Of a stretch of DNA of 64,000 nt, positions 9,668-62,525 are shown piece after piece. The notes beneath the pieces were generated by a model that was not told the origin of the DNA, searched no databases, and worked only from the letters and a program-made list of their open reading frames with translations. The DNA comes from Citrobacter telavivensis (GTDB lineage Bacteria > Pseudomonadota > Gammaproteobacteria > Enterobacterales > Enterobacteriaceae), in NCBI GenBank assembly GCA_009363175.1, contig CP045205.1:856549-920548 (forward strand), given 5' to 3'. A program made the position numbers and the translations under genes. Positions within the stretch are counted from its first letter, which is position 1. Every line of letters starts with the position of its first letter.

Positions 9668-10360
9668 TTAAAAGCAGTGACCTGCCTCAACGGCAACCGC
9701 ATCTTTACCGGCTTCGAACACGTACGTGGTGTTCGGGCCGCCAAGCACCGCCTGGCCTTTGCTCACTTTAATCCAGTTCCCTTCCGGCAGACCGATCACC
9801 GTCAGTTCTGGCGCGACAACCAGTAGCTCGCGAATACGCTGTTCACGCGTTTCGCCTTTATGACCTTCCGGCAGCGCGTTGGTGAAATGCGGGTTAATCT
9901 GTAGCGGGAACAGGCCCAGCGCATCGAAACCTTTTGGATCGACAATCGGCATGTCGTTGGTGGTGCGGATGGTCTGGCAGGCGAGGTTCGCACCCGCGCT
10001 CCAGCCGATGTACAGCGCACCGCGTTTTACCACGTCAACCATCGGCGCCAGCAATCCGCGTTCGCGGCTCTCTTTCAGCAACTGGAAGGTATTCCCTCCG
10101 CCGACGATCACCACTTCCGCATTTTCAATTGCTGCCAGCGGATCGGCGACGCTGTGAATGCCCACCACCCTGACGCCCATGGGGGCGAAAATCGCTGCCG
10201 TTTTTTCCGTGTACTCATCCCAGGTCTGGGTCACGCCTGCGAAGGGAATAAACACCGCTGAGCGGCGACCATTCAACTGTTCCACAATCAGCGGCAGCGC
10301 GTGTTCCATCCAGTCTTTACCTGGCAACGTCGAGTTACTCAATAAAAGCAGTTCCATCAT
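9668..10360 (-). CDS. pepE: Peptidase E (alpha-aspartyl dipeptidase)
   Basis: (M)[42 protein letters not shown]...[24 protein letters not shown]. The S51-family catalytic Ser motif is present. Confidence 0.93.
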
Positions 10361-11283
10361 TTCTCCGTAAAATCAGAAAATTACAAAACGCGATAATGTA
10401 CCACTGACAGTGTAGCGTCTTACTGACATGGCTCACGATGTTGGAAGGGGATTGCGGAAAGGCAAAGCCGTGTTTTAACGATGCGCCCGGTTCCTGGCGC
10501 ATTCATCAGCACTGACCGGTATTCACTGTCGGACGATTTTCTCGCTAATTTGCGATGAAACAGGCGCGACAGACGCATTAAACAGCGCGAGACATTTCCA
10601 ATATTTAAGTTTGAAAATGATAACTATTTTTAATACGGTAAATGCAGAATAGCGTTTAGCGGTTTTATATTTATTATTGCTGATGTTTTTTATTCAATAT
10701 TCCTGAGGGTTAAAAGGGGTTCTTATTTTAAAATTTAGAAAATGTTCTATTTAATAAGACAGTCAAAATGCGGCTCTGTCATAGCGTTAACCAGGAAAAG
10801 ACGGGCATTAAGTGGAAAAGGCATACGGCGCTCGCTCGCCCCTCTGAAGCCTCGAATCCGGTGTCTGAAGGGGAGGTATCGTCTGGATGGTGCCATGCAA
10901 GCAATTTTCATATTTGTGTAACTAAATATTTCATTTCGAATATATAATTTTACGTAACTAGCTGAAATATGGGAATTTTACCAAAAATTTAATTTTATGT
11001 ATCTTTTTGTTTTACCTACAATCAGTAAGGTAAATTCCGAAAAAAAGATCGATTACAACGATCGATATTTCTCCAGTAATAGTCTTTGTCTATTGGTTTT
11101 GTTCTATCGATCAGGTTTGACAATCAATATTGCTCATGTACTATTCTGGTTGAATCAATATTATACCGACAGCAACAGAGTGGGCGTGCCGGACTATGTC
11201 AGAATAAATAATCTCGCCGGATAACAGACTCCCTACTAAGAATAAATGAACGGGCTGTCCTTGATATAGGGAGCATAATCTGT
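10361..11283. other. AT-rich (~30-35% GC) non-coding spacer marking the start of an accessory block. Probably an H-NS-type silenced regulatory region for the downstream LuxR/autotransporter genes.
   Basis: Sharp fall in GC relative to the flanking genes (>52%). Only short ORFs without ribosome-binding sites. Confidence 0.5.
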
Positions 11284-11829
11284 ATGACAAAGGAATATGT
11301 AAAGAAGTGCCATATCGCCAGTTGGCCTGAAAATGATTTTTATTTTTCCAGGGGAATTTCCGTTCTGTCCAGGAAATTGATTAATTCTCATTCCGGCTCA
11401 GACTACCTGTTTATTCACCTTAATAGCTACACATTAAAGAGTTTCTTTCGATCATTCTCTCAATTGAGTAAGAGTGGTTATCAGCTGATCATTATTTCCA
11501 GCCAACGACTCATGCCACTGGCTTTTTTCTGGCACCTGAAATGTCAGGCTGTTAGCGCAATCTTTGAATCGCGTTGTTCTGTTAACGATATCATCCGCGG
11601 TCTGGACACTGTCGCGACGGGGCGTCAAATCGTGTGGTCATTCCCGGGACCAGCCTGTCGGCTCTCCTCAAGAGATGTTTTGCTTCTGCGACATTATCTT
11701 GAAGGCGGAAGTATGAGTTATTTGCAGGAGAAACATTGCCGCGCCTATTCCACCTTGCAAGGATGGAAAACCACTGTTGCTCGTAAATTTAAAGTAAAGA
11801 AACTCGAACATCTGCTTATTCCGAACTGA
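11284..11829 (+). CDS. Small LuxR/GerE-family transcription regulator (181 aa; HTH in the C-terminal ~60 aa, no receiver domain)
   Basis: C-terminus LSSRDVLLLRHYLEGGSMSYLQEKHCRAYSTLQGWKTTVARKFKVKKLEHLL is a LuxR-type HTH. Low-GC gene directly upstream of the autotransporter. Confidence 0.65.
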   Translation: MTKEYVKKCHIASWPENDFYFSRGISVLSRKLINSHSGSDYLFIHLNSYTLKSFFRSFSQLSKSGYQLIIISSQRLMPLAFFWHLKCQAVSAIFESRCSVNDIIRGLDTVATGRQIVWSFPGPACRLSSRDVLLLRHYLEGGSMSYLQEKHCRAYSTLQGWKTTVARKFKVKKLEHLLIPN

Positions 11830-11938
11830 ATAACACGCTCAAAAATCAGTTTTCTTTTCTTCGGCCGGCCCATGACACTTTCATAAGCCGCAGAGAAGTG
11901 CTCGTCAAATATGGACTTTATTAACTATGGATTTAGAT

Positions 11939-14779
11939 ATGAAACGCGTCTTTTACCATGCTTTTTTCCCTGCATTATGCTTAACGGCGTATCCGCTTGC
12001 GGCGGCAGAAACGCTCCCCACGCCTTATCCTCCCGTACAAACAACTACGATGCCGGGCGATCTGACGTCGAATCCGGACTATACCAATCACTGGGATTGG
12101 GTGAAAGAAACGTGGGAAAAAGGCTATTCCACTTTTTCCATCAAAGACAAAAAATATATTGCGAACCAGGAAATCGTCCTGCTTAACCCCGCATATTCCA
12201 AACAGGTCGTGACGTTATTAAATGAGTCGTACAGTTACAACAATACGTTAAACTCTGTTCAGCTTAATATCGGCGACGGTATTTATGATGCTGCGGGTTC
12301 TGAAGCGGTGAATACCACGGTTAAAGGCGAATACACCAATAGCAAAGGGAATATTGAAACGGGGGTTTTACAACTGAACAGTGGTGGTAAAGCCTTCCAT
12401 ACGCTGGTTGAAAATAACGGCGCCCTTACGCTGAATGGCGATTCCGAAGCCTATGACACCGTGGTGAAAACAGGCGGAAGACAGACTGTGGGTGGGCGTG
12501 GCTATGCCCAGGCGAACCTCATTGATGGCGGCACGCAGGTGCTTTCTGTCACCAGCACCGCGCTGGTTGAAGATACGATTGTGCAAAATGGCGGCCAGCA
12601 GATTATTTATAGCGGGACCGCGAAAAACTCTCATATTGGCGCGGGCAGCTATCAGCTTGCCAGCGGGCTGGCTCTGGACACATTCCTGTATAACGGCGCA
12701 TTCCAGCAGGTTTATAGCGGAAAAGGCGCTGAATACGTCGCTGACCGGGATACCACGGTGTATGCGGGCGCGCGACAAACGATTACCTCCGGAATTTCAG
12801 AAAATGCGCAGGTTTATGGTACGCAGGTGATCACTGGCGTAGACGGTCAATGGAGTGGTGGAGACTGGATTTCCGACAGCAATTCAACAGTGCGCGTCAA
12901 CGGACAACAGGCGAAGGACGCCACCATTCATGCGGGAGGGTTGCAACGAATTCAAACCGGTAATGCCGACGGGACGCAGGTCTACGGCACGCAACTGGTT
13001 AATGGTCAGAAAGGCGGTTGGTCCGGTGGAAGCTGGGTTGAGCAGGAAGGCTGGACGGGCGGTATTCGCGCCAACGCGACCAATACAACCGTTCATGCCG
13101 GAGGCCTCCAGCAGCTCGCCTGGTACGGTGAAGCCAGTAACACGGTCGTTGATGGCGGACGCCAGGAGGTGCTCGCGCGGGGGCATATTTCGAACACAAC
13201 GCTTCGCAATGGCGGGAGCAGCCTGATTGCCTATGGCGGTTACTCAACTGACGCGCTGACGGTAGAAGAGGGTTCGCTGACGATGGAAGGGGGAAGCGTA
13301 CATGACTGGACAGGAAATCTGGGCAAGGGGGCCTGGGCTGCCGCCGTGGACTTACAAAGCCCTTCATCGGTTCTCTACCTGAAACACAATGCTGACACCA
13401 CCGAATCCGTCGCTACGATTAAAGCCTTAACGAACAATGGCGTGGTCAATTTTAGCGCGTCAGAGGGTCACACGGCGGGGCAGTTTAACCGTCTGGAACT
13501 CACCACGCTTGAGGGTAACGGTACTTTCGTCATGAACACCAATTTATCCGGTGGCACAGGCGATTTTCTGAATGTTTCTGAATCTGTCAGCGGGCAATTT
13601 AATGTCACAGTGCAGGATTCAGGAAGTGAGTTACGTAGTCGCGCTGCTGCGCCTTACCATCTGATTTATGCGAACGGGAGTGTGGCCAATACGTTTGCGA
13701 TGACAAACGGCAGCGTCGATCTTGGCGCATATAAATACTATCTGGTGCACGGCGCTGACAGCGACAAAGACAACTGGTATCTGTCGCCACAAGCGAATAC
13801 GCCAGAGCCAGGCCCCAACCCTGATCCAGGCCCAGGCCCTTCTCCGACTCCAGAACCAGAGGTAAAACCGGATTTATCAGAAAGCGCTAAAGCGGTGATT
13901 GCCATGGCGAATGTGACCCCCACCATATGGGATGCTGAGCTGACAACGCTGCGGACACGTCTCGGTGAAATTCGTCAGATGCGTGACCATGAAAATGGCG
14001 TCTGGGGCAAATATATCAGTAGCCGCTACCGTGTATCCACAGAGCACGTAGGTTACCGTCAGGATGTGAATGGCGTGATGTTCGGCGGTGATACGCGTTT
14101 TGCGTTGGAAGATAGCGCATTCATTGTGGGCAGTATGACTTCTTATACGCGTGCGGATCTCGACGCATCCAGCACAAATGGTAAAGCCGACAGTTATGGC
14201 ATCGGGCTGTATACGACCTGGTTACACAACAGCGGTTATTACGTTGATGGCGTATTGAAAGCTAACTATTTCCGCACTGAGAATAACCCTTACTTCAACG
14301 GCGGACGCACACATGCGAAAGATAATACCGTTGGCGGCGGCCTGTCTGTCGAAGCCGGGAAGCATATTGCGCTGGAGAGTTGGTTTGTAGAACCGTACAT
14401 TCAGGCATCGTGGTTTATGGGGGACAGAACCCATTACAAACTCGACAGCGGCATGTCGGTTAAAGCGGATGCAACCCGGTCTCTGAAAGGGGAAACGGGG
14501 TTAACCTTCGGTAAGAATGTGGCGTTGGCGGATGGGACAATGCTACAGCCTTACGCGAGACTGGCTGTTCGCCATGAGTTTATGAAGAACAATGATGTCG
14601 TTATTAACCACACCGAGAAGTTTACCAACGATCTGTCTGGCACAAGCGGTAAATACGGCCTGGGGATGACAGCAAAACTGAACGATCGGTGGTCCGCCTG
14701 GGGAGAGGTGAGCTACGAAAAAGGCCAACATATCGAGACGCCTTACAGTGGCCAGTTGGGCATCCGCTACAGTTTCTGA
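11939..14779 (+). CDS. AIDA-I-type (type Va) autotransporter adhesin: signal peptide, repetitive beta-helical passenger, Pro-rich linker, C-terminal 12-strand beta-barrel
   Basis: MKRVFYHAFFPALCLTAYPLAAA signal peptide. Passenger repeats GG.Q.V..G.A..T.V.NGG.Q. Linker PEPGPNPDPGPGPSPTPEPE. Beta-domain ends ...GIRYSF. The 11927 start in the ORF track is probably 4 codons too far upstream. Confidence 0.85.
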   Translation: MKRVFYHAFFPALCLTAYPLAAAETLPTPYPPVQTTTMPGDLTSNPDYTNHWDWVKETWEKGYSTFSIKDKKYIANQEIVLLNPAYSKQVVTLLNESYSYNNTLNSVQLNIGDGIYDAAGSEAVNTTVKGEYTNSKGNIETGVLQLNSGGKAFHTLVENNGALTLNGDSEAYDTVVKTGGRQTVGGRGYAQANLIDGGTQVLSVTSTALVEDTIVQNGGQQIIYSGTAKNSHIGAGSYQLASGLALDTFLYNGAFQQVYSGKGAEYVADRDTTVYAGARQTITSGISENAQVYGTQVITGVDGQWSGGDWISDSNSTVRVNGQQAKDATIHAGGLQRIQTGNADGTQVYGTQLVNGQKGGWSGGSWVEQEGWTGGIRANATNTTVHAGGLQQLAWYGEASNTVVDGGRQEVLARGHISNTTLRNGGSSLIAYGGYSTDALTVEEGSLTMEGGSVHDWTGNLGKGAWAAAVDLQSPSSVLYLKHNADTTESVATIKALTNNGVVNFSASEGHTAGQFNRLELTTLEGNGTFVMNTNLSGGTGDFLNVSESVSGQFNVTVQDSGSELRSRAAAPYHLIYANGSVANTFAMTNGSVDLGAYKYYLVHGADSDKDNWYLSPQANTPEPGPNPDPGPGPSPTPEPEVKPDLSESAKAVIAMANVTPTIWDAELTTLRTRLGEIRQMRDHENGVWGKYISSRYRVSTEHVGYRQDVNGVMFGGDTRFALEDSAFIVGSMTSYTRADLDASSTNGKADSYGIGLYTTWLHNSGYYVDGVLKANYFRTENNPYFNGGRTHAKDNTVGGGLSVEAGKHIALESWFVEPYIQASWFMGDRTHYKLDSGMSVKADATRSLKGETGLTFGKNVALADGTMLQPYARLAVRHEFMKNNDVVINHTEKFTNDLSGTSGKYGLGMTAKLNDRWSAWGEVSYEKGQHIETPYSGQLGIRYSF

Positions 14780-21370: not shown

Positions 21371-21838
21371 CTGTAGACTCCTGCACATTTGTGCAAATCA
21401 CGAACCAGCCTTCTTGATCTGATATAACCTCATAAAAGCGGGAGTTCAAAGCAATTTTCTCTTCTTTCCACGTCCTGTACTGGCGGTTTATATTGCACAT
21501 ATGATGTGCGGGTCGATCGTTGTTGGCACAGATGTGCAAGTAATCCTAATGTCTTGATTCTGCTGATTTTCATTCAACAAAATTGCAGGCTAAGATCGGC
21601 GACACTTTTGTGTCGAAAGGTGTGGCGGATCACAAATAGTGCAGAGGCCATTCTGCACGATTATTTTTTATCGCCAGCAAGGTAGGGTATATTCCGCATT
21701 TATTACACAAAGCATTCAGGCTGTATCAAGGCGGCAAGGGAGCGAATCCTCTGGAGCATAGATAACTATGTGACTGAGGTGAGTGCGGGCAGCCAACGCA
21801 GAGACAGCCTGAAGGATAAAGTGTACAAAGGAGAAATT

Positions 21839-23049: not shown

Positions 23050-23808
23050 TCAGTCAGCAATACGCAGTTTTCCTGCGAAATCCTGCTGTGTATAACCCGT
23101 TGTTTTAAATCCCTTATCCGTAATGACGTGATCAATCTCTTTGAGCGTGGCGATACACATCACGCCGTCCTGACCAAATTTAGTATGGTCGGCGAGAATC
23201 ACGGATTTTTTACTCATTGCAATCATCGCTTTGGCAACGTAAGCCTCATCAAAGCTCTTCACGAGTATGCCATGCTGCGGTGAAATGCCGCCCGCACCGA
23301 TAAAGCAGATATCGGCGTGAATCGCGTTAATCTGCTGGCATACCGAGACGCCCAGATTGGCGCGGAAATGGTAATCATATTCGCCGCCTAAGACATAGAC
23401 ACGCGCCTGGAGATTATGCTCTTTTATTTTATCGGCAATTAAGGCGGAATTGGTAATAACGGAAAATGCGAAAGGAGGTAAGTGTTCGGCAAGAATAAGA
23501 TTCGTGGTACATGAATCAATAAACAGCGTATCGCGCTCGCTGACCATTCCCGCGGCGACTTTGCCAATTGCCATTTTTTCTTCACGATGCGCATCTATTC
23601 TTGCGCCAAATGCATCTTCCTGGACAACCTGTTTTTTGACTGCACCACCGTGAATTTTGGTGATCTGACCTTCAGACTCCAGTAAAGAGAGATCGCGGCG
23701 AATGGTTTCTGAGGTCACATTTAGCGTTTCTGATAATTTAATAACGGTCACTTCACCGAATTTGTTTAATTCATCAAGAATATGTTTTCTTCTTTTAATC
23801 GGGTTCAT
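23050..23808 (-). CDS. DeoR-family transcription regulator (HTH plus sugar-phosphate-binding domain)
   Basis: MNPIKRRKHILDELNKFGEVTVIKLSETLNVTSETIRRDLSLLESEGQITKIHGGA. Confidence 0.85.
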   Translation of the reverse strand: MNPIKRRKHILDELNKFGEVTVIKLSETLNVTSETIRRDLSLLESEGQITKIHGGAVKKQVVQEDAFGARIDAHREEKMAIGKVAAGMVSERDTLFIDSCTTNLILAEHLPPFAFSVITNSALIADKIKEHNLQARVYVLGGEYDYHFRANLGVSVCQQINAIHADICFIGAGGISPQHGILVKSFDEAYVAKAMIAMSKKSVILADHTKFGQDGVMCIATLKEIDHVITDKGFKTTGYTQQDFAGKLRIAD

Positions 23809-24658
23809 TATTTTCCGCCTGGGCCGAGCTTTGCCGCATGGTAACTGGATGCGCAGAGCAACGCAACCACTCCAGCGCACAGACGATACCCTCATCATCA
23901 TTCGTGGTTGTCACATAGCGGGCCTGACGTTTCACACTCTCTGGTGCGTTGCCCATCGCGATGCCGAACCCGGCAACGGCAAACATACTGACGTCGTTCT
24001 GCTGATCGCCAATGGCGGCAATCTCTGCGGTAGGTCGATTTAATTGCCGGGCGATTTCATTTATCGCATAGCCTTTATTAATCTCGCTACGTTGAATATC
24101 AATATAATTGCCGCCAGTGATCGTCGCCTTATAGTCATCAGGCAGCAGGCTGTTTATTTTCAGGCACAGATCGTCGATTCTGTCGTGTTCTGCCACCAGC
24201 GTGATTTTAAATATATCGCGACGATTAAAGATATTCCCTGGTGCGGCGTTAATAAGTGGTAACTCAAATAAGCTGGCCTCATACGATGTCCACGGAGCGA
24301 TAAGGCGATCGTAACGGTGATAAATTGCCTGTGGAGTAAAAAAATGGTGAGGATAGCGGGACAGCGAAATATGCCGGTCAATATCTCTGAGATCCATTTG
24401 GGTGAGCGCGGCAGAATGCAAAATGCGCTGCTGCGCCGTTTCAAGAATTTGCCCGCCGTTGAAGCCGGCGCACCAGCCAAACAGCGTCTCAACCTGCTGC
24501 TGTTGTAACAGGCGCGCCATGGAGGAGACCGGTCTGGCGGAACAGGCGGCCAGCAGACCGCCGTGCTGGCGAAATTCAACCAGCGCCTGACGCGTACGTG
24601 AACTGATGGTCTTCTGCGACGTCAGTAATGTTCCATCCAGATCGGTAACCAGTAGCAT
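23795..24658 (-). CDS. Cof-type HAD-IIB sugar-phosphate phosphatase
   Basis: MLLVTDLDGTLL (motif I), ...GDQQNDVSMF... (motif IV). Confidence 0.85.
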   Translation of the reverse strand: MLLVTDLDGTLLTSQKTISSRTRQALVEFRQHGGLLAACSARPVSSMARLLQQQQVETLFGWCAGFNGGQILETAQQRILHSAALTQMDLRDIDRHISLSRYPHHFFTPQAIYHRYDRLIAPWTSYEASLFELPLINAAPGNIFNRRDIFKITLVAEHDRIDDLCLKINSLLPDDYKATITGGNYIDIQRSEINKGYAINEIARQLNRPTAEIAAIGDQQNDVSMFAVAGFGIAMGNAPESVKRQARYVTTTNDDEGIVCALEWLRCSAHPVTMRQSSAQAENNEPD

Positions 24659-24673
24659 TATTGTTCTCTGTGG

Positions 24674-25540
24674 TTATGCGTGCGCAATAAAGGGGGCTAC
24701 GGCCTCTTTAGCGGCATTGCAAACCATATTGTCGATTGCCGTGCCGACGACCAGAATATTGACCCCGGTGTCCTTAAACGCTTTGGCATTGGCGAGGTTA
24801 ATTCCGCCTTCTGCCAGCGTCGGGACGTCCACCGCGCTAACCAGCGCCCGAAGACGGTCTTTAATCATCTGCGGGATATCGCCTGCCGCCACGCCCTCAT
24901 AGCTCATCCCGGTCATCAGGCCGATCATATCGACCCCCATCTCCTGCATGCGCTTCGCCACGCTGGCGACCTCTTCCGGGGTGCGTGCCGGAATGCCGAA
25001 GGTATGCAGGTCATCCGGATGACCAATGTAGGCGTCAACGGTCAGGCCATATTCATGGGCGAGGTTGACGATGTCCTGCAGGTCGTCCCAGTCAGATTTG
25101 TGGGTGTGTAAACCGTCGGCCCCGGCGCGGGCAATCTCCAGAATCTCCGTTTCACTGAGCGGCACGGGCAGCGTTTCGGTAAACCCGCCCGCAATACCCA
25201 CGGTGATGAAGATGTCGTCCGGCACCACATTACGCACACCGTGTACCGCTTCTGCCATCTGACCGTTGGTGATTTCGTGGCGGATTTGCTCCGCAGCGTG
25301 CATGTTGCTCACCCCCTTGTGTCCGCGAGCCAACGCCAGTGCCGGATGGTTGGGCTCCAGCAGTTTCACGCCTGCTTCACACACCGCTTTCGCCAGGCGC
25401 GCATCGTCGCCGGTGATCCCCGTACTGAGGATGGTTTGCCCGCCGTGCAACGCGATGGCATCTTTCACTTTCTGTAACGCTTTGGCGCGTTTTTTATTCA
25501 TATCGCCTTTAAACATGGTGTACCTCTGGTGTTGGTGCAT
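24674..25540 (-). CDS. Probable TIM-barrel enzyme (aldolase / epimerase-like). I cannot assign a family. The start may be the downstream MFKGD codon.
   Basis: Alternating beta/alpha pattern. Late motifs ...DMIGLMTGMSYEG... and EGGINLANAKAFKDTGVNILVVGTAI resemble the phosphate-binding end of (beta/alpha)8 enzymes such as Eda/NanE. Confidence 0.45.
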   Translation of the reverse strand: MHQHQRYTMFKGDMNKKRAKALQKVKDAIALHGGQTILSTGITGDDARLAKAVCEAGVKLLEPNHPALALARGHKGVSNMHAAEQIRHEITNGQMAEAVHGVRNVVPDDIFITVGIAGGFTETLPVPLSETEILEIARAGADGLHTHKSDWDDLQDIVNLAHEYGLTVDAYIGHPDDLHTFGIPARTPEEVASVAKRMQEMGVDMIGLMTGMSYEGVAAGDIPQMIKDRLRALVSAVDVPTLAEGGINLANAKAFKDTGVNILVVGTAIDNMVCNAAKEAVAPFIAHA

Positions 25541-25543
25541 TAA

Positions 25544-27130
25544 TTAACGGGCAGACGGCACAGATTCACTCTGTACGACAGCCTTAAAACGGTTCGCAAC
25601 GATGGTGGTAATGCAGGTCATGATCATGACGGTGGCCATCACGATAGCCATCTGCAGCGCATTGCTGGATAAGAACGGTGAGGCGAAAGCCGGAACGTAG
25701 GCCACCCCTTTGACGTTAAAGAAGCCGAGCATCATGCCGCCCATTCCTGCCCAGAAAATGGCGGAGCCAAAGACGATTTTGTTGGCGAACATGAAGGGGT
25801 AGGCGGATTCCACGAAGGTCCCGAAGCCCAGGTTGATAAGCAGTCCTGGTGTGGCAACGGCCGCTTCGCTTTTTTCGCGTGGCGCGATGACGTTGGCCAG
25901 GTTGATACCGGCTGCGACCATGACCAGCCCGACCATGTCCACTGCACCGAGGAAGCTGACGCCGGATTTTTCCATCTCCAGCAGCACCAGTGGCAGGATG
26001 ACCGCGTGATAGACGCCACCCAGAATGGCAGGCCAGATAACCAGACCGGCCAGCAGCCCGGCAAGAATCGGACTAAATGCCAGCGTGCTTTCGATAGCCA
26101 GTTTGATGTAGTTACCCGCGGAGAGCGCCAGTGGGCTCAACAGATAGTGCATGATCAAGCCGGCAGCCAGGCCCGAAATACCGCCAGCAACGATGTTGAC
26201 GGTGGTCATCGGGAAGCGCCAGTTCAGGCACAGTTCAAACAACCAGCGCACAAAAATCCCGGCCATCACGCCGCCAATAATCCCGCCGATCAGGCCGCCT
26301 TCAACAGAAAGCACCCCGGCGACGACCCCGGCCACAATAGAAACTTCATCAAGTTCGGAAATCTGTTTTGCCGCCAGCACAGCAACCAGCACCGGCAGCC
26401 CTTTCAGCAGGATTTCAAAGATATCGTTGAGTTTTTCCAGCCCGGGAATGTGGCTCAGGGCGAGTACGATCGCCATCGCGATAAAGCCCGGTAGCGCTGG
26501 AATCATGATGCTGCGAATGTTAAAGCGCTTGAGCAGGCTCTTTCCGGAACCGCCCTGTGAAGGTGACGCGCTGCCCAACTGGGGTTTGTACTTGATGCCC
26601 CAGTATTTACACAGCGAAGCCACGAAGGAGACCGCGCGGGTGCGGCTGGTGGTGCCGGTTGTGCCTGAAGTCGCGACCACATTGGCGCCTTTTGCGGCGA
26701 CCAGTGCCATCGACGTGCCTCCGGTGCCGACGATAGGGGTTTTCATCTCCACGGCGGCATCAAAAACGGCCTGGTTTGCTTTTACCGGATCGGCGCTCAT
26801 CACGACGATCCCGTCGATCTCACCACGGCGGATCATTCCGGCTATCCGACTATCGCTCTCGACGACGGAGGCATTCACCTCAGAGAGTTTGCCCTGGAAG
26901 ATGCGTTGTGGTTTTGTTTGGTTTTCTGTGGTTAATGCATAGACGGAGGCGGGGGTGTCAGGTTTAGCGACATCCATCGAGGCATCTGCCGCGATGAACT
27001 GCACGGCGGCGACATCCACACCTGCGGCTTCGCACTGCTGATAAATCTCCTGGAGTAACTTTTCTGGCTCGGCGCCACCCAGGTTGTAGAGGTTGCCTCC
27101 ACTGCTTCCAATAATCGCAATTTTTTTCAT
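25544..27130 (-). CDS. 528-aa fusion-like membrane protein: a ~200-aa N-terminal soluble domain followed by a Gly-rich polytopic membrane domain. Putative transporter or permease.
   Basis: Good coding potential. The membrane segments are rich in GxxxG (GVVAGVLSVEGGLIGGIIGGVMAGIF). Confidence 0.6.
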   Translation of the reverse strand: MKKIAIIGSSGGNLYNLGGAEPEKLLQEIYQQCEAAGVDVAAVQFIAADASMDVAKPDTPASVYALTTENQTKPQRIFQGKLSEVNASVVESDSRIAGMIRRGEIDGIVVMSADPVKANQAVFDAAVEMKTPIVGTGGTSMALVAAKGANVVATSGTTGTTSRTRAVSFVASLCKYWGIKYKPQLGSASPSQGGSGKSLLKRFNIRSIMIPALPGFIAMAIVLALSHIPGLEKLNDIFEILLKGLPVLVAVLAAKQISELDEVSIVAGVVAGVLSVEGGLIGGIIGGVMAGIFVRWLFELCLNWRFPMTTVNIVAGGISGLAAGLIMHYLLSPLALSAGNYIKLAIESTLAFSPILAGLLAGLVIWPAILGGVYHAVILPLVLLEMEKSGVSFLGAVDMVGLVMVAAGINLANVIAPREKSEAAVATPGLLINLGFGTFVESAYPFMFANKIVFGSAIFWAGMGGMMLGFFNVKGVAYVPAFASPFLSSNALQMAIVMATVMIMTCITTIVANRFKAVVQSESVPSAR

Positions 27131-27501
27131 AGCGGCCTCAAAGGTAGGGTAAGGGGTTATCTGTGTTGTAGTGGAATCATATTCCCAATCAAAACAAAAT
27201 AAAGCAACATGAAAAGATCGATGACAATAACCGATGAGACAATGTGACTGGCTTAATTTTATGAAAATTCAGGGGTTACGTTGTTTTTTGTTTTATGTTG
27301 TTATTTGTTGTTTTGTGATGCACTTCAAATACTGTACCGGGAGTTGAAGTACCAAAAGAAGGAATAACCTGGAAAGCGCCTCGCAGATTATGCCTTTCTG
27401 AAGTGACGATATGTCTTGCCTGAATTAGTTTACCCGAGCAGGGATGGTGCGCTTGTATTTTACTCAACAAATGCGTATAAAATTTTATACAAGGATGCGA
27501 T

Positions 27502-27857
27502 ATGCTGCTAAACAAGCAGGTACTTAGATCTGTTGCCTGGGTCGGGCATTCTTTCGAAGACTGCGCGATTTCCCGCCAGAGGTACGTAAAGATGCCGGTT
27601 ACCCACTACATCGTGTCCAGGCGGGATTAGAGGCTGCTGACTGGAAACCGATGCCTGAGATTGGGCGTGGTGTTGAAGAGCTCCGATTACGTAATGAAGC
27701 TGGAGCATACCGGATTATCTACCTTGCCCGCTTTGAGGATACCGTCTATGTGCTGCACTGTTTCAGTAAGAAAACGCAGCGGACTTCCGGGCAGGATAAA
27801 CACATTGCGCAGGTTCGCTTTCAGGCGGTCTGTCAGGAACACAGGAGGCGTCAATGA
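27502..27857 (+). pseudogene. Gp49/HigB-like (RelE/ParE superfamily) toxin gene, broken by a 1-nt deletion at about 27560
   Basis: Frame A reads MLLNKQVLRSVAWVGHSFED and then stops. Frame B continues LRDFPPEVRKDAGYPLHRVQAGLEAADWKPMPEIGRGVEELRLRNEAGAYRIIYLARFEDTVYVLHCFSKKTQRTSGQD. Together they make a typical DUF891 toxin. Confidence 0.7.
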
Positions 27858-28192
27858 GCCACGAAGTGGATACTAAAATTCGTCATGTCACTTCTGCACA
27901 GGCGAATATTTTTGCTGAACCAGGCTTTGATGACGCAGAAGCCAAACACCTTCAACAAGACGCAGAACGTGAAGTGGAACAACTCATCCGTCTCAAACAA
28001 CAGCTTATGCAGGAAATCGCTGTCTGGATTGAAGAAAATCACATGAAACAATCAGAGGCGGCGGTGAGATTAAATATCTCGCGGCCCCGCGTTTCCGATG
28101 TCGTTAACCAGAAAGCGAGCAAATTTACCCTGGATGCATTGGTCATGATGCTGATGAAGTTAGGAATACCGGTGACGGTGCAGGTAGGTTAG
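27854..28192 (+). CDS. XRE-family HTH antitoxin (HigA-like), partner of the broken toxin. Its start overlaps the toxin stop.
   Basis: ...HMKQSEAAVRLNISRPRVSDVVNQKASKFTLDALVMMLMKLGIPVTVQV is a C-terminal HTH of the addiction-module antidote type. Confidence 0.75.
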   Translation: MSHEVDTKIRHVTSAQANIFAEPGFDDAEAKHLQQDAEREVEQLIRLKQQLMQEIAVWIEENHMKQSEAAVRLNISRPRVSDVVNQKASKFTLDALVMMLMKLGIPVTVQVG

Positions 28193-28224
28193 GCCCGGTT
28201 TTTCGTCATATCGGGCCTGTGCCT

Positions 28225-29166
28225 TTAACTTTCTTTAACCGTATTCCGTTGCGGCTTATCAATCGGTTTACCGGACCAGTAGCCGGCCAGCAGGGAACCG
28301 GAAAGGTTGTGCCAGACGGAGAACAGTGCGCCAGGCAGCGCAGCGAGCGGTCCGAAGTAAATTTTACCCAGCGCGGCGGCGAGGCCTGAGTTTTGCATTC
28401 CAACCTCGATTGCCAGCGTGCGGCAGGTTGACTCGTCAAAGCCAAACAGACGTCCCCCCCAGTAACCGCCGAGCAGGCCGATAGTGTTGTGCAGGATCAC
28501 GGCGATAATCACCACGAAGCCGACGGACGCGATATGCGCCGCGGAACCCGCGACCACCGCGCTGATGATTGCCAGAATGCAGACCATCGAAAACGCAGGC
28601 AGGTAAGGCTCAACTGCCTTCACCACGCGCGGGAACAGGTGGTGGATCACCAGGCCCAGGGCAATCGGGATCACCACAATCTGCAAAATACTGAGCAGCA
28701 TGCCCATCACATCAACCTGAATATGCGCATCGACATACATACGTGTTAGCAGCGGCGTGGCGACCACGCCCACCAGGGTGGAAACGGATGAGATCGTCAC
28801 CGAGAGCGCCACATCCCCTTTCGCCAGATAGATCATGACGTTAGATGCCGTGCCGCTGGCCACGCTACCGACCAGTACCATCCCGGCAGAGAGTTCCGGC
28901 GGCATGTTAAACGCCAGCGCCAGTATCCATGCCGCGAGCGGCATCACCAGATAGTGCAGGAAGATCCCGGCCGCAACCGGCGCAGGGCGCGAAAGCACGC
29001 GTTTGAAATCATCCACTTTCAGATGAACGCCCATACCGAACATGATCAGCATCAGCAGTGTCGTCACCCACGGGCCGACAGGCGTAAAGGTGGTTGGCGT
29101 GTAATACGCAATAACAGAGAGCAGCAGCGCCCATAACGGGAACAGCCTGGTGAGAGTGGCGAGCAT
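28225..29166 (-). CDS. Bile acid:sodium symporter (BASS) family transporter
   Basis: 313-aa protein with 9-10 TM helices and the typical BASS length and pattern (...[26 protein letters not shown]...). Confidence 0.8.
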
Positions 29167-29284
29167 GTTGTTTTCCTTGCACGTATGTTGTGTTTGCTTG
29201 TTATTAACCGGTTGGGATCGAGCCCAACCATAGTTAGTTTTTATCGTGTGAAGGAATATTATTCAAACAAATTATACACTTTAT

Positions 29285-29392
29285 CCTTCAAGCTGCCTCA
29301 GCGTTGGCTGTCTTCGTTCACCCCTGTCACTTACTTATGTAAGCTCCAGGGGATTCTCTCAGTTGCCGCCTTGATGCAACTCGAATGATTTT
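29285..29392. repeat. ERIC/IRU element (copy 1), directly downstream of rtcR
   Basis: The minus strand reads ...GAGAATCCCCTGGAGCTTACATAAGTAAGTGACAGGGGTGAACG..., the conserved ERIC core. A paralogous copy lies at 62422-62525. Confidence 0.8.
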
Positions 29393-29402
29393 GTGTATAT
29401 GC

Positions 29403-60130: not shown

Positions 60131-60463
60131 TCAGCCATGAGCTGCTTTAGTCAACGTATCGTTAATCCATTGATTTACACTTTTCCCGGAGACTTCGGCG
60201 GCGATGTTAATCGCCGAATGCACCTCCGGAGAAATACGCAGACTGATCTTTCCACTAGCCGGGCGCAGAGGTTCTCTGCCTTGTTCAGCACAGTAAGAAA
60301 GGTAATCATCGACCGCTTCTTCGAAGGCATTGCGAAGATCGGAAACGTTGTCGGCATGGAAACCAATCACATCACGTATACCGGCAACATGCCCGACGAA
60401 GCACAAATCTTCGTCACTGTAATCAATTTTGGCGGCATAGCCTTTATAAGTCATGGTGTTCAT
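60131..60463 (-). CDS. hicB: HicB-family antitoxin (HicB fold plus C-terminal RHH)
   Basis: MNTMTYKGYAAKIDYSDEDLCFVGHVAGIRDVIGFHADNVSDLRNAFEEAVDDYLSYCAEQGREPL...SPEVHSAINIAAEVSGKSVNQWINDTL. Confidence 0.85.
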   Translation of the reverse strand: MNTMTYKGYAAKIDYSDEDLCFVGHVAGIRDVIGFHADNVSDLRNAFEEAVDDYLSYCAEQGREPLRPASGKISLRISPEVHSAINIAAEVSGKSVNQWINDTLTKAAHG

Positions 60464-60724
60464 GGGATCACTCCTACTGCGATAAGAAAGGCCATAGCAT
60501 CCTTGACCTGATAAACTTTGGCTTCCTTTTCAGGATGTGGGCGATGAAAAGAGGCCACAACCTGATTGATTTCAAATCTGACACGGGATCCGTTCCCCTC
60601 TGAGACCTTTGCACCTAAGGCAACAAACAGCGCCTCAATTTTTCGCCATTCCAGCGCCGCAGGCGTTGGTAGTGAGAAAATCTGCTGTAATGTTTTTTTG
60701 GTATCTGGCGCTTAGTGATGTCAT
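60460..60724 (-). pseudogene. hicA: HicA-family toxin gene, out of frame at an A7 run (T7 on the plus strand at 60693-60699). Its stop overlaps the hicB start (ATGA).
   Basis: TATACT -10 element and AAGGAAAC ribosome-binding site precede the ATG at 60724. Frame 1 reads MTSLSARYQKN then stops. After a +1 shift in the A-run the frame reads ...TLQQIFSLPTPAALEWRKIEALFVALGAKVSEGNGSRVRFEINQVVASFHRPHPEKEAKVYQVKDAMAFLIAVGVIP, which is a HicA. Confidence 0.7.
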
Positions 60725-60869
60725 ATCAATGCCGTTTCCTTGTGAGTATAATGCCCGCCAGGACAATTTGATGCTATCATTTTTTGATAGCACATCAAGG
60801 TGAATCGTATCCCTTTCCTGCCTGTGCTATAGTAGCGCCCCCAAATCACCGGATGCTCAAAAAATCACC

Positions 60870-62410: not shown

Positions 62411-62421
62411 CTGTCATAATT

Positions 62422-62525
62422 AAAGCTGCAGGTGTGTTGGCTGCTGTCACTCACCCCAGTCACTGATTTCAGTAAGCTCCTGAGGATTCGTTCCATTGCC
62501 GCCTTCCTGCAACTTGAATGATTCA
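62422..62525. repeat. ERIC/IRU element (copy 2)
   Basis: About 85% identical over ~55 nt to the copy at 29285-29392 (gtaagctcctgaggattcgttccattgccgccttcctgcaacttgaatgatt). Confidence 0.75.

What the first reader, a model, noticed from the sequence alone, without database searches (positions are those of the whole stretch)
27502..28192. Second TA pair with the same pattern: Gp49/HigB-like toxin broken by a 1-nt deletion, XRE antitoxin intact
The N-terminal 20 codons (MLLNKQVLRSVAWVGHSFED) and the remaining ~95 codons (LRDFPPEVRKDAGY...YVLHCFSKKTQRTS...) of a DUF891-type toxin are in different frames, joined at about 27560 (gaagaC|TGcgcgat, one missing C). The downstream HTH antitoxin, whose start overlaps the toxin stop, is complete. 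With hicA this makes two independent TA loci in the window whose toxins are frameshifted and whose antitoxins are preserved. The pattern is consistent with selection against toxin activity while the antitoxin or regulator function is kept. An internal ATG at 27651 could still yield an N-terminally truncated 68-aa product.
Basis: seen in the sequence. Interest (0 to 1): 0.5.

Follow-up and report, generated by a model that had tools for sequence, protein, structure and literature searches.

The report
Eroding HigB-like toxin–antitoxin cassette
A small chromosomal toxin–antitoxin cassette in Citrobacter telavivensis has lost one C in its toxin gene, and its still-open antitoxin gene has begun to pick up damaging changes, which is the ordinary, well-documented toxin-first decay of such modules.

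Summary
Window 27502-27857 is a Gp49/PF05973 (RelE/ParE-fold, HigB-like) toxin gene. Codons 1-20 and 22-118 lie in different frames because one C is missing (GACCTG to GACTG, at 27561/27562). Intact alleles from the same species differ at this site only by that C, and one is 117/118 identical to the repaired protein. At least 8 independent samples, in two haplotypes, carry the deletion, so it is not a sequencing error. No slippery site or homopolymer is present, and the frameshift is absent from other species. The 68-aa internal-ATG product lacks 10 of the 11 invariant residues. The downstream HTH_37/XRE antitoxin (27854-28192) is an open ORF with its own AGGAGG. The upstream 16-bp palindrome is conserved.

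"Toxin broken, antitoxin open" is the usual, viability-constrained order of TA erosion (185 toxin-only versus 8 antitoxin-only cases in Photorhabdus, PMC13617665). The window's antitoxin also carries L23P and K105I. Both residues are absent from 112 homologues at near-invariant sites, and both arose after the frameshift. That points to relaxed constraint, not preservation. The hicA frameshift (in an A7 run) is real. Ordinary; low interest.

The parts
27336..28225 (+). TA cassette of about 890 bp, inserted between the 528-aa membrane-protein gene (25544-27130, -) and the SBF-family transporter gene (28225-29166, -).
   Evidence: The cassette is at the same site in Citrobacter sp. ANG330 (L001), C. 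amalonaticus (L002) and C. telavivensis (L022). It is absent from the related contig L021, where about 46 nt replace it.
27475..27490 (.). Perfect 16-bp palindrome GTATAAAATTTTATAC, 12 nt upstream of the toxin ATG. Putative operator overlapping the -10 region; function is inferred.
   Evidence: Found as an inverted repeat. Invariant across the window, three Citrobacter loci and Klebsiella in alignment A2. One hapB carrier (L013) has an A-to-T change inside it at 27481. Binding was not tested.
27502..27561 (+). Toxin codons 1-20 (frame A), MLLNKQVLRSVAWVGHSFED. Frame A then runs on to TAG 27628-27630, giving a 42-aa ORF.
   Evidence: Covers strand beta1 (residues 10-13) and most of helix alpha1 (17-22) in the model of a 91%-identical intact homologue. 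R6Q (27518) is derived in this haplotype.
27561..27562 (+). Frameshift site. One C is lost from the CC of GAC-CTG (D20-L21).
   Evidence: Alignments A4. Intact conspecific L022, L023 and L024 read GACCTG. The window and 10 other loci read GACTG.
27564..27857 (+). Toxin codons 22-118 plus the stop codon (frame A-1): RDFPPEV...QEHRRRQ*.
   Evidence: Identical to the corresponding residues of the intact C. telavivensis protein XQS15645.1 (P0092).
27651..27857 (+). Internal-ATG ORF of 68 aa, corresponding to residues 51-118 of the toxin. Probably not a functional toxin.
   Evidence: No Shine-Dalgarno sequence upstream. Lacks 10 of the 11 invariant columns of alignment A1 (F24 P25 R29 A32 G33 L36 Q40 G42 D47 K49). 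Also lacks beta1, alpha1 and alpha2.
27843..27848 (+). AGGAGG Shine-Dalgarno sequence of the antitoxin, 5 nt before its ATG.
   Evidence: It allows antitoxin translation without coupling to the toxin.
27854..28192 (+). HTH_37/XRE antitoxin (HigA-like), 112 aa, open ORF. Carries the derived substitutions L23P (27921) and K105I (28167).
   Evidence: Pfam PF13744, 59.5 bits. The exact sequence is WP_152401390.1 of C. telavivensis. P23 and I105 are unique among 113 aligned sequences.

Best explanation
This is a horizontally acquired type II toxin-antitoxin cassette of about 0.9 kb. It encodes a Gp49/PF05973 RelE-fold HigB-like toxin followed by an HTH_37/XRE antitoxin, in the chromosome of Citrobacter telavivensis, and it is at an early stage of neutral erosion.

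Shown:
- A single C was lost from GACCTG at codons 20-21.
- Translation from the native ATG therefore ends after 42 codons. The catalytic body is out of frame and has no canonical start until M51.
- The deletion is a real, heritable allele that segregates within the species alongside intact alleles.

Inferred:
- The toxin is dead.
- The antitoxin is still made from the autoregulated promoter through its own AGGAGG.
- The antitoxin no longer has a toxin to neutralise, so purifying selection on it has relaxed. This would explain the two radical substitutions at near-invariant positions (L23P, K105I) in the window's sub-lineage.
- The 'toxin broken, antitoxin open' state is simply the viable first step of decay, because losing the antitoxin first would be lethal.
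For: - Frameshift and family.
- Exact site and lost base.
- Intact conspecific allele: XQS15645.1 is 117/118 identical to the repaired toxin. Its flanks are 97.3-99.3% identical to the window.
- Not an error: the same deletion, with no gap at the site, is in NCBI GCA_009295665.1 and in Logan and ENA contigs from at least 8 samples. They fall into two haplotypes that differ at 5-9 positions across the cassette.
- Cassette nature: absent from L021 and present at the same site in other Citrobacter species. Homologous pairs occur on a C. freundii plasmid and in Mycobacterium prophages.
- Fold: the AF2 model (pLDDT 91) matches M. tuberculosis HigB1, S. pneumoniae HigB, T. thermophilus RelE and V. 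cholerae HigB2. The profile hits 6af3 HigB at E 8e-5.
- Antitoxin relaxation: P23 and I105 are unique among 113 sequences. The antitoxin partnered with the intact toxin (P0100) has no unique residue. Both changes are derived and post-date the deletion.
- Recurrence: independent truncations of this toxin occur in other lineages (P0061, P0082, P0083, P0084, P0097).
- Literature: toxin-first erosion is the norm (PMC13617665; PMC7167474).
Against: - Toxin inactivity is inferred, not measured.
- dN/dS on the whole window branch shows no clear relaxation. The toxin has 5 synonymous and 5 nonsynonymous changes, and the antitoxin has 11 synonymous and 3 nonsynonymous by strict codon parsimony, a count that did not score L23P. 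The frameshift is too recent for a statistical signal.
- The case for antitoxin relaxation rests on two substitutions only. With 35% of positions at least 97% conserved, two random hits land on such positions 12% of the time under neutrality.
- The other frameshift haplotype (hapB) keeps an ancestral antitoxin.
- All carriers keep the antitoxin ORF, its SD and the palindrome, apart from one SNP inside the palindrome in L013. This is also what selective retention would predict.
Confidence: 0.85

Rival explanations
1. The toxin was removed by selection because it is costly, and the antitoxin is kept by selection for a function of its own. That function could be transcriptional regulation, or anti-addiction against related plasmid- or phage-borne Gp49 toxins.
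For: The antitoxin ORF, its AGGAGG and the upstream palindrome are retained in all carriers, apart from one SNP inside the palindrome in L013. A related TA pair sits on a Citrobacter freundii plasmid at 72.5% nucleotide identity. A second TA locus in the window (hicAB) shows the same state. Anti-addiction is an established proposal (Saavedra De Bast 2008, cited in PMC7167474).
Against: The pattern is what viability-constrained neutral decay predicts, and it is common. The frameshift is recent, so an open antitoxin ORF needs no selection to explain it. The window antitoxin carries two unique substitutions at near-invariant sites that arose after toxin loss. Intact alleles persist in the same species, so there is no evidence that the toxin is strongly counter-selected.
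Confidence: 0.1
2. The gene is still expressed as a functional toxin. This would happen by recoding (ribosomal frameshift) or from a non-canonical start, as RefSeq annotates it: ATC 27528 giving 109 aa, or CTG 27561 giving 98 aa. Reinitiation at ATG 27651 (68 aa) is a further route.
For: RefSeq lists WP_371306080.1 (109 aa) and WP_446715168.1 (98 aa) as proteins, not pseudogenes. A product starting at CTG would keep every invariant residue from L21 onward. The frame-A stop (27628-27630) lies 20 nt before ATG 27651, so reinitiation is conceivable.
Against: There is no X_XXY_YYZ heptamer and no homopolymer of 4 or more in 27502-27640. There is no SD before ATC, CTG or ATG 27651. The frameshift is absent from every other species and from conspecific intact alleles, so it is not a conserved recoding site. 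Products from any of the three starts lack beta1, and full-length homologues always include it. The short database entries are contig-edge partials or other broken alleles. The 68-aa form lacks 10 of the 11 invariant residues.
Confidence: 0.03
3. Sequencing or assembly error in this genome. The real gene would then be intact.
For: Single-base indels are the commonest assembly error, and reads could not be inspected here.
Against: The site is a CC dinucleotide, not a homopolymer run. The identical deletion is in 11 fetched loci, from one NCBI genome assembly and from Logan and ENA assemblies of at least 8 different samples. These fall into two haplotypes separated by several SNPs.
Confidence: 0.01

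Closest known systems
HigBA-type modules with a Gp49/PF05973 toxin and an HTH_37 (XRE) antitoxin. Examples are S. pneumoniae HigBA (PDB 6af3/6af4) and M. tuberculosis HigB1 (7awk, 7nbu). V. cholerae HigBA2 (5jaa) is also close by fold.
   Same: Toxin-first gene order with overlapping stop and start codons (ATGA). RelE/ParE fold (Foldseek probability 1.0, TM 0.55-0.66). The profile hits 6af3 HigB at E 8e-5. The antitoxin has an N-terminal extension followed by a C-terminal HTH.
   Different: The toxin is frameshifted after codon 20. Sequence identity to solved HigB proteins is only 15-22%. The single sequence finds no solved toxin structure. Ribosome-dependent mRNase activity has never been tested for this enterobacterial clade.
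Decay of chromosomal TA systems. Examples are ccdO157 in E. coli (Mine et al. 2009, Genetics 181:1557, cited in PMC7167474) and the erosion of TA systems in Photorhabdus (Belot et al. 2026, PMC13617665).
   Same: The toxin is inactivated by truncation or frameshift while the antitoxin ORF persists. Intact and broken alleles are polymorphic within a species at a conserved chromosomal site. The cassette is present or absent among related genomes.
   Different: This is a different TA family and a different host. Here the first post-inactivation substitutions in the antitoxin can be ordered along haplotypes (intact, then hapB, then hapA).
Orphan antitoxins and anti-addiction modules (Saavedra De Bast et al. 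2008, J Bacteriol 190:4603; cited).
   Same: An expressed antitoxin without an active cognate toxin, in a genus that also carries related plasmid-borne pairs.
   Different: There is no evidence of cross-neutralisation. The window's antitoxin has non-conservative changes at near-invariant sites.

Membership tests
Gp49/DUF891 (PF05973) toxin of the RelE/ParE superfamily | Sequence match to the family profile above the curated threshold | tested here: met
   The repaired 118-aa sequence scores 82 bits against a cut-off of 23.9, over profile positions 1-89 of 90. The TIGR02683 hit is only sub-threshold (20 versus 62.85 bits).
Gp49/DUF891 (PF05973) toxin of the RelE/ParE superfamily | Uninterrupted full-length ORF (105-120 aa, including beta1) | tested here: not met
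   A 1-nt deletion at 27561/27562 splits the gene. Frame A stops at 27630. It is a pseudogene of the family, not a functional member.
Gp49/DUF891 (PF05973) toxin of the RelE/ParE superfamily | RelE/ParE fold (beta-alpha-alpha followed by an antiparallel sheet) | tested here: met
   AF2 model of the 91%-identical intact homologue P0001: pLDDT 91, pTM 0.84. The best PDB matches are HigB1, HigB, RelE and HigB2.
Gp49/DUF891 (PF05973) toxin of the RelE/ParE superfamily | Toxicity, i.e. ribosome-dependent mRNA cleavage, neutralised by the partner | not testable with these tools
   Needs a kill-rescue assay with the repaired and the native allele.
HTH_37/XRE antitoxin (HigA-like) | HTH_37 domain, gene immediately downstream of and overlapping the toxin gene | tested here: met
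   PF13744 scores 59.5 bits against a cut-off of 27, over residues 40-111. ATGA overlap at 27854-27857. The TIGR02607 HigA equivalog was not reached (18 versus 47.7 bits).
HTH_37/XRE antitoxin (HigA-like) | Family-conserved residues retained | tested here: not met
   L23 (109/112 homologues) is P in the window, and K105 (110/112) is I. Neither residue occurs in any homologue.
HTH_37/XRE antitoxin (HigA-like) | Autoregulation through an operator in the promoter | tested here: inconclusive
   A conserved 16-bp palindrome lies at 27475-27490. The consensus scan found no sigma-70 promoter on the + strand. Binding was not tested.
Eroding chromosomal TA (toxin pseudogene) | An intact allele in close relatives whose only frame-disrupting difference is this indel, with the lesion reproducible across independent assemblies | tested here: met
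   L022, L023 and L024 are intact and 98.9-99.1% identical over the cassette. Eleven loci carry the deletion.
Programmed ribosomal frameshift | Slippery motif at the shift site, and conservation of the two-frame arrangement in homologues | tested here: not met
   No heptamer or homopolymer is present. All other species and the conspecific intact alleles are in one frame.

The most novel reading that the evidence does not exclude
After toxin loss, the orphan HTH_37 protein is being re-tuned rather than decaying. On this reading L23P and K105I are adaptive changes. They would convert a toxin-binding antitoxin into a stand-alone regulator or a cross-reactive anti-addiction factor. Alternatively, the 68-98-aa toxin remnant is expressed and has a new, non-toxic role.
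Probability: 0.05. Interest if true: 0.4.

Novelty: already known. Interest (0 to 1): 0.12.

Why it matters
It has little importance beyond annotation. The locus should be annotated as a frameshifted RelE/ParE-family (Gp49) toxin pseudogene followed by an orphan XRE antitoxin. RefSeq instead lists 109-aa and 98-aa 'proteins' with ATC and CTG starts, and GenBank lists a 68-aa hypothetical protein.

Its modest value is as a clean, datable snapshot of TA erosion. The series runs from the intact allele, to loss of one C, to the first radical substitutions in the antitoxin, all within one species. That series could be used to test experimentally how quickly antitoxin function decays once the toxin is dead.

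Tried and rejected
- E. coli genomes: megablast of the locus found nothing. The locus is Citrobacter-specific.
- Solved structures: the single-sequence PDB search with the toxin gave only chance hits. A profile and a fold search were needed.
- Identity of the lost base: the first cross-species DNA alignment suggested a missing T, from GACTTG. Conspecific intact alleles corrected this to a missing C, from GACCTG.
- Apparent 13-nt insertion in L016: it is a scaffold N-run, not biology.
- The 95-96-aa database homologues looked like natural short forms. P0056 and P0073 start with L at a contig edge, and the others are broken alleles.
- Locating hicA: E. coli K-12 HicA/HicB tblastn, phmmer with remembered consensus sequences and several regexes all failed. 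The locus was found through a synteny gap against L020.
- Two exact-protein look-ups failed because my ORF starts were too long.
- Pairwise and branch dN/dS had too little power to show relaxation in the toxin.
- The consensus promoter scan found no + strand sigma-70 site upstream of the toxin.

Full report
**What is in the sequence.** From the ATG at 27502, the + strand reads MLLNKQVLRSVAWVGHSFED and then continues out of register to a TAG at 27628-27630, giving a 42-aa ORF. The frame one base back reads (L)RDFPPEVRKDAGY...QEHRRRQ and ends at the TGA at 27855-27857. That frame has no ATG, GTG or TTG before the ATG at 27651.

Joining the two pieces gives 118 aa. This matches Pfam Gp49/DUF891 (PF05973) over profile positions 1-89 of 90, at 82 bits against a cut-off of 23.9.

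The next gene (27854-28192, 112 aa) is an HTH_37/XRE protein (PF13744, 59.5 bits). Its ATG overlaps the toxin stop codon (ATGA), and it has its own AGGAGG five bases upstream. A perfect 16-bp palindrome, GTATAAAATTTTATAC (27475-27490), lies 12 nt before the toxin ATG. It is invariant from the window to Klebsiella in the cross-species alignment.

**Is the frameshift real, and where exactly is it?** A search of 5.8 billion proteins returned 84 relatives. The full-length ones are 105-122 aa, and the close enterobacterial ones are 116-118 aa. They align with the repaired protein from the first residue to the last, and the junction motif SFEDLRDFP is conserved.

The window is Citrobacter telavivensis. 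Its antitoxin is exactly WP_152401390.1 / QFS69862.1. Contig WHIY01000016.1 of GCA_009295665.1 is 100% identical across the locus.

Another C. telavivensis genome (CP175802.1, L022) encodes an intact 118-aa toxin, XQS15645.1. It is identical to the repaired window protein except for R6 in place of Q6. At the DNA level L022 and two further intact conspecific alleles (L023 = Citrobacter sp. Ct235, and L024) read GAAGACCTGCGC. The window reads GAAGACTGCGC. My first cross-species alignment suggested a lost T, because other species have TTG at that codon. The conspecific alleles settle the point.

**Not an artefact.** The same deletion, with no gap relative to the window, occurs in 11 fetched loci. 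These come from one NCBI genome assembly and from Logan and ENA assemblies of at least 8 different samples. They fall into two haplotypes:
- hapA: the window, L010, L011/L014, L012 and L016.
- hapB: L013, L015 and L017-L019.

Across the cassette, hapB loci differ from the window at 5-9 positions. An apparent 13-nt insertion in L016 is a run of N.

Flanking DNA of the intact alleles is 96.5-99.3% identical to the window. Intact and broken alleles therefore segregate within one species-level group.

**Not recoding.** Between 27502 and 27640 there is no X_XXY_YYZ heptamer in the upstream frame and no homopolymer of four or more bases. The two-frame arrangement is absent from every other species.

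RefSeq nevertheless lists the remnant as proteins of 109 aa (ATC start at 27528) and 98 aa (CTG start at 27561). GenBank lists the 68-aa ORF. None of these starts has a Shine-Dalgarno sequence.

An AlphaFold model of the 91%-identical intact homologue (pLDDT 91) has beta1 at residues 10-13, alpha1 at 17-22, alpha2 at 26-40, a four-stranded sheet across residues 48-90 and a C-terminal helix. Its best matches among solved structures are M. tuberculosis HigB1, S. pneumoniae HigB, T. thermophilus RelE and V. cholerae HigB2. A sequence profile also reaches 6af3 HigB at E 8e-5.

The 42-aa product keeps only beta1 and most of alpha1. The 68-aa product lacks 10 of the 11 invariant columns of the family alignment. 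I infer that no functional toxin is made. This was not measured.

**What the module is.** The TA pair is a cassette of about 890 bp (27336-28225). It lies between a 528-aa membrane-protein gene with no Pfam family and an SBF-family transporter gene, next to rtcR. It sits at the same site in Citrobacter sp. ANG330 and C. amalonaticus. It is missing from a related contig (L021, about 90% flank identity), where roughly 46 nt take its place. Related pairs occur on a 425-kb C. freundii plasmid and in Mycobacterium abscessus prophages. It is therefore an ordinary mobile type II TA cassette of the HigBA kind.

**Interpretation.** Three results argue for plain erosion instead.

First, the state 'toxin broken, antitoxin open' is the expected first step, because the reverse order is lethal. 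It is also the common pattern. Across Photorhabdus genomes the toxin alone was pseudogenised 185 times, both genes 186 times, and the antitoxin alone 8 times (PMC13617665). Reviews describe the same decay for E. coli systems such as ccdO157 (PMC7167474). Within this toxin family, other lineages also show independent truncations (P0061, P0082, P0083, P0084, P0097).

Second, the lesion is young. Besides the indel, hapB differs from the intact L022 allele by only one to a few SNPs across the cassette. An open antitoxin ORF therefore needs no selective explanation.

Third, polarising the variable sites with intact conspecifics and two outgroups shows four changes that the window's haplotype acquired after the deletion:
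- one intergenic change at 27370;
- R6Q in the toxin remnant;
- L23P in the antitoxin;
- K105I in the antitoxin.

In an alignment of 112 homologues, position 23 is L in 109 and position 105 is K in 110. Neither P nor I occurs at these positions in any homologue. The antitoxin that partners the intact toxin has no unique residue at all. This suggests that constraint on the antitoxin relaxed once the toxin died.

The caveat is sample size, since this rests on two substitutions. With 35% of positions at least 97% conserved, two random hits fall on such sites 12% of the time. Branch-wide dN/dS has no power here: toxin 5 synonymous and 5 nonsynonymous, antitoxin 11 synonymous and 3 nonsynonymous by strict codon parsimony, a count that did not score L23P.

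**The hicA companion claim.** A HicB-family gene lies at 60131-60463 on the minus strand (PF05534, E 1.5e-18). Upstream of it, an ORF starting at 60723 breaks frame inside the A7 run of CCAAAAAAACATT. Removing one A gives a protein of 87 aa; the 88-aa approximation actually scanned, which carries one extra Lys, matches HicA_toxin (PF07927, E 1.7e-9). The locus is an insertion of about 0.7 kb relative to a related genome (L020). So the window does hold two TA loci with frameshifted toxins, which is unremarkable given the published frequencies.

**Verdict.** The feature is a known kind of element in a known kind of decay, already present in public records, although RefSeq annotates the broken toxin as shortened proteins rather than as a pseudogene. 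Interest is low.

Noticed in passing
window 60131-60725 (- strand): A hicAB locus. HicB (110 aa, PF05534) is intact. hicA starts at 60723 and is frameshifted inside an A7 run (about 60694-60700). Deleting one A restores a HicA_toxin protein of about 87 aa. The locus is an insertion of about 0.7 kb between a TraF_2-like outer-membrane protein gene and dusA, relative to L020. A homopolymer site could be a sequencing error or slippage-prone, unlike the CC site of the Gp49 toxin.
   Followed up: partly
window 29273-29397; also 21704-21828 (-) and 62420-62523: Three copies of a hairpin-forming repeat of about 125 nt (76-80% identical, MFE -39 kcal/mol). From memory it resembles ERIC, because it contains ...CACTTACTTATGTAAGCTCC.GGGGATTC.... 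The copy between the SBF transporter gene and rtcR is present in hapA loci and L015 but absent from L001, L002, L013 and L022, so it is a recent insertion polymorphism.
   Followed up: partly
window 27528 and 27561: RefSeq annotates the broken toxin as proteins with non-canonical starts: WP_371306080.1 (109 aa) from ATC, and WP_446715168.1 (98 aa) from CTG. GenBank annotates a 68-aa hypothetical protein (CAI9391885.1). None is flagged as a pseudogene.
   Followed up: yes
window 27921 and 28167: The antitoxin substitutions L23P and K105I are unique among 113 aligned family members. They arose after the toxin frameshift, in the window's sub-lineage only.
   Followed up: yes
window 23050-27130 (- strand): An operon-like run upstream of the cassette: a DeoR-family regulator, a Cof/HAD hydrolase, a protein of 280-288 aa with only weak TIM-barrel-like Pfam hits, and a 528-aa predicted membrane protein with no Pfam family. 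The run is conserved across Citrobacter loci. Its function is unknown.
   Followed up: no
window 10360-14779 compared with L021 13022-13757: The window carries a 181-aa gene and a 950-aa gene between pepE and the shikimate-dehydrogenase-like gene. The related contig L021 has two different small genes (179 and 73 aa) there. This is another variable spot.
   Followed up: no
window 28090: The synonymous site R79 of the antitoxin is C in the window and in the intact alleles L023 and L024. It is G in hapB, L022 and the outgroups. This is homoplasy, or a small recombination tract within the cassette.
   Followed up: no
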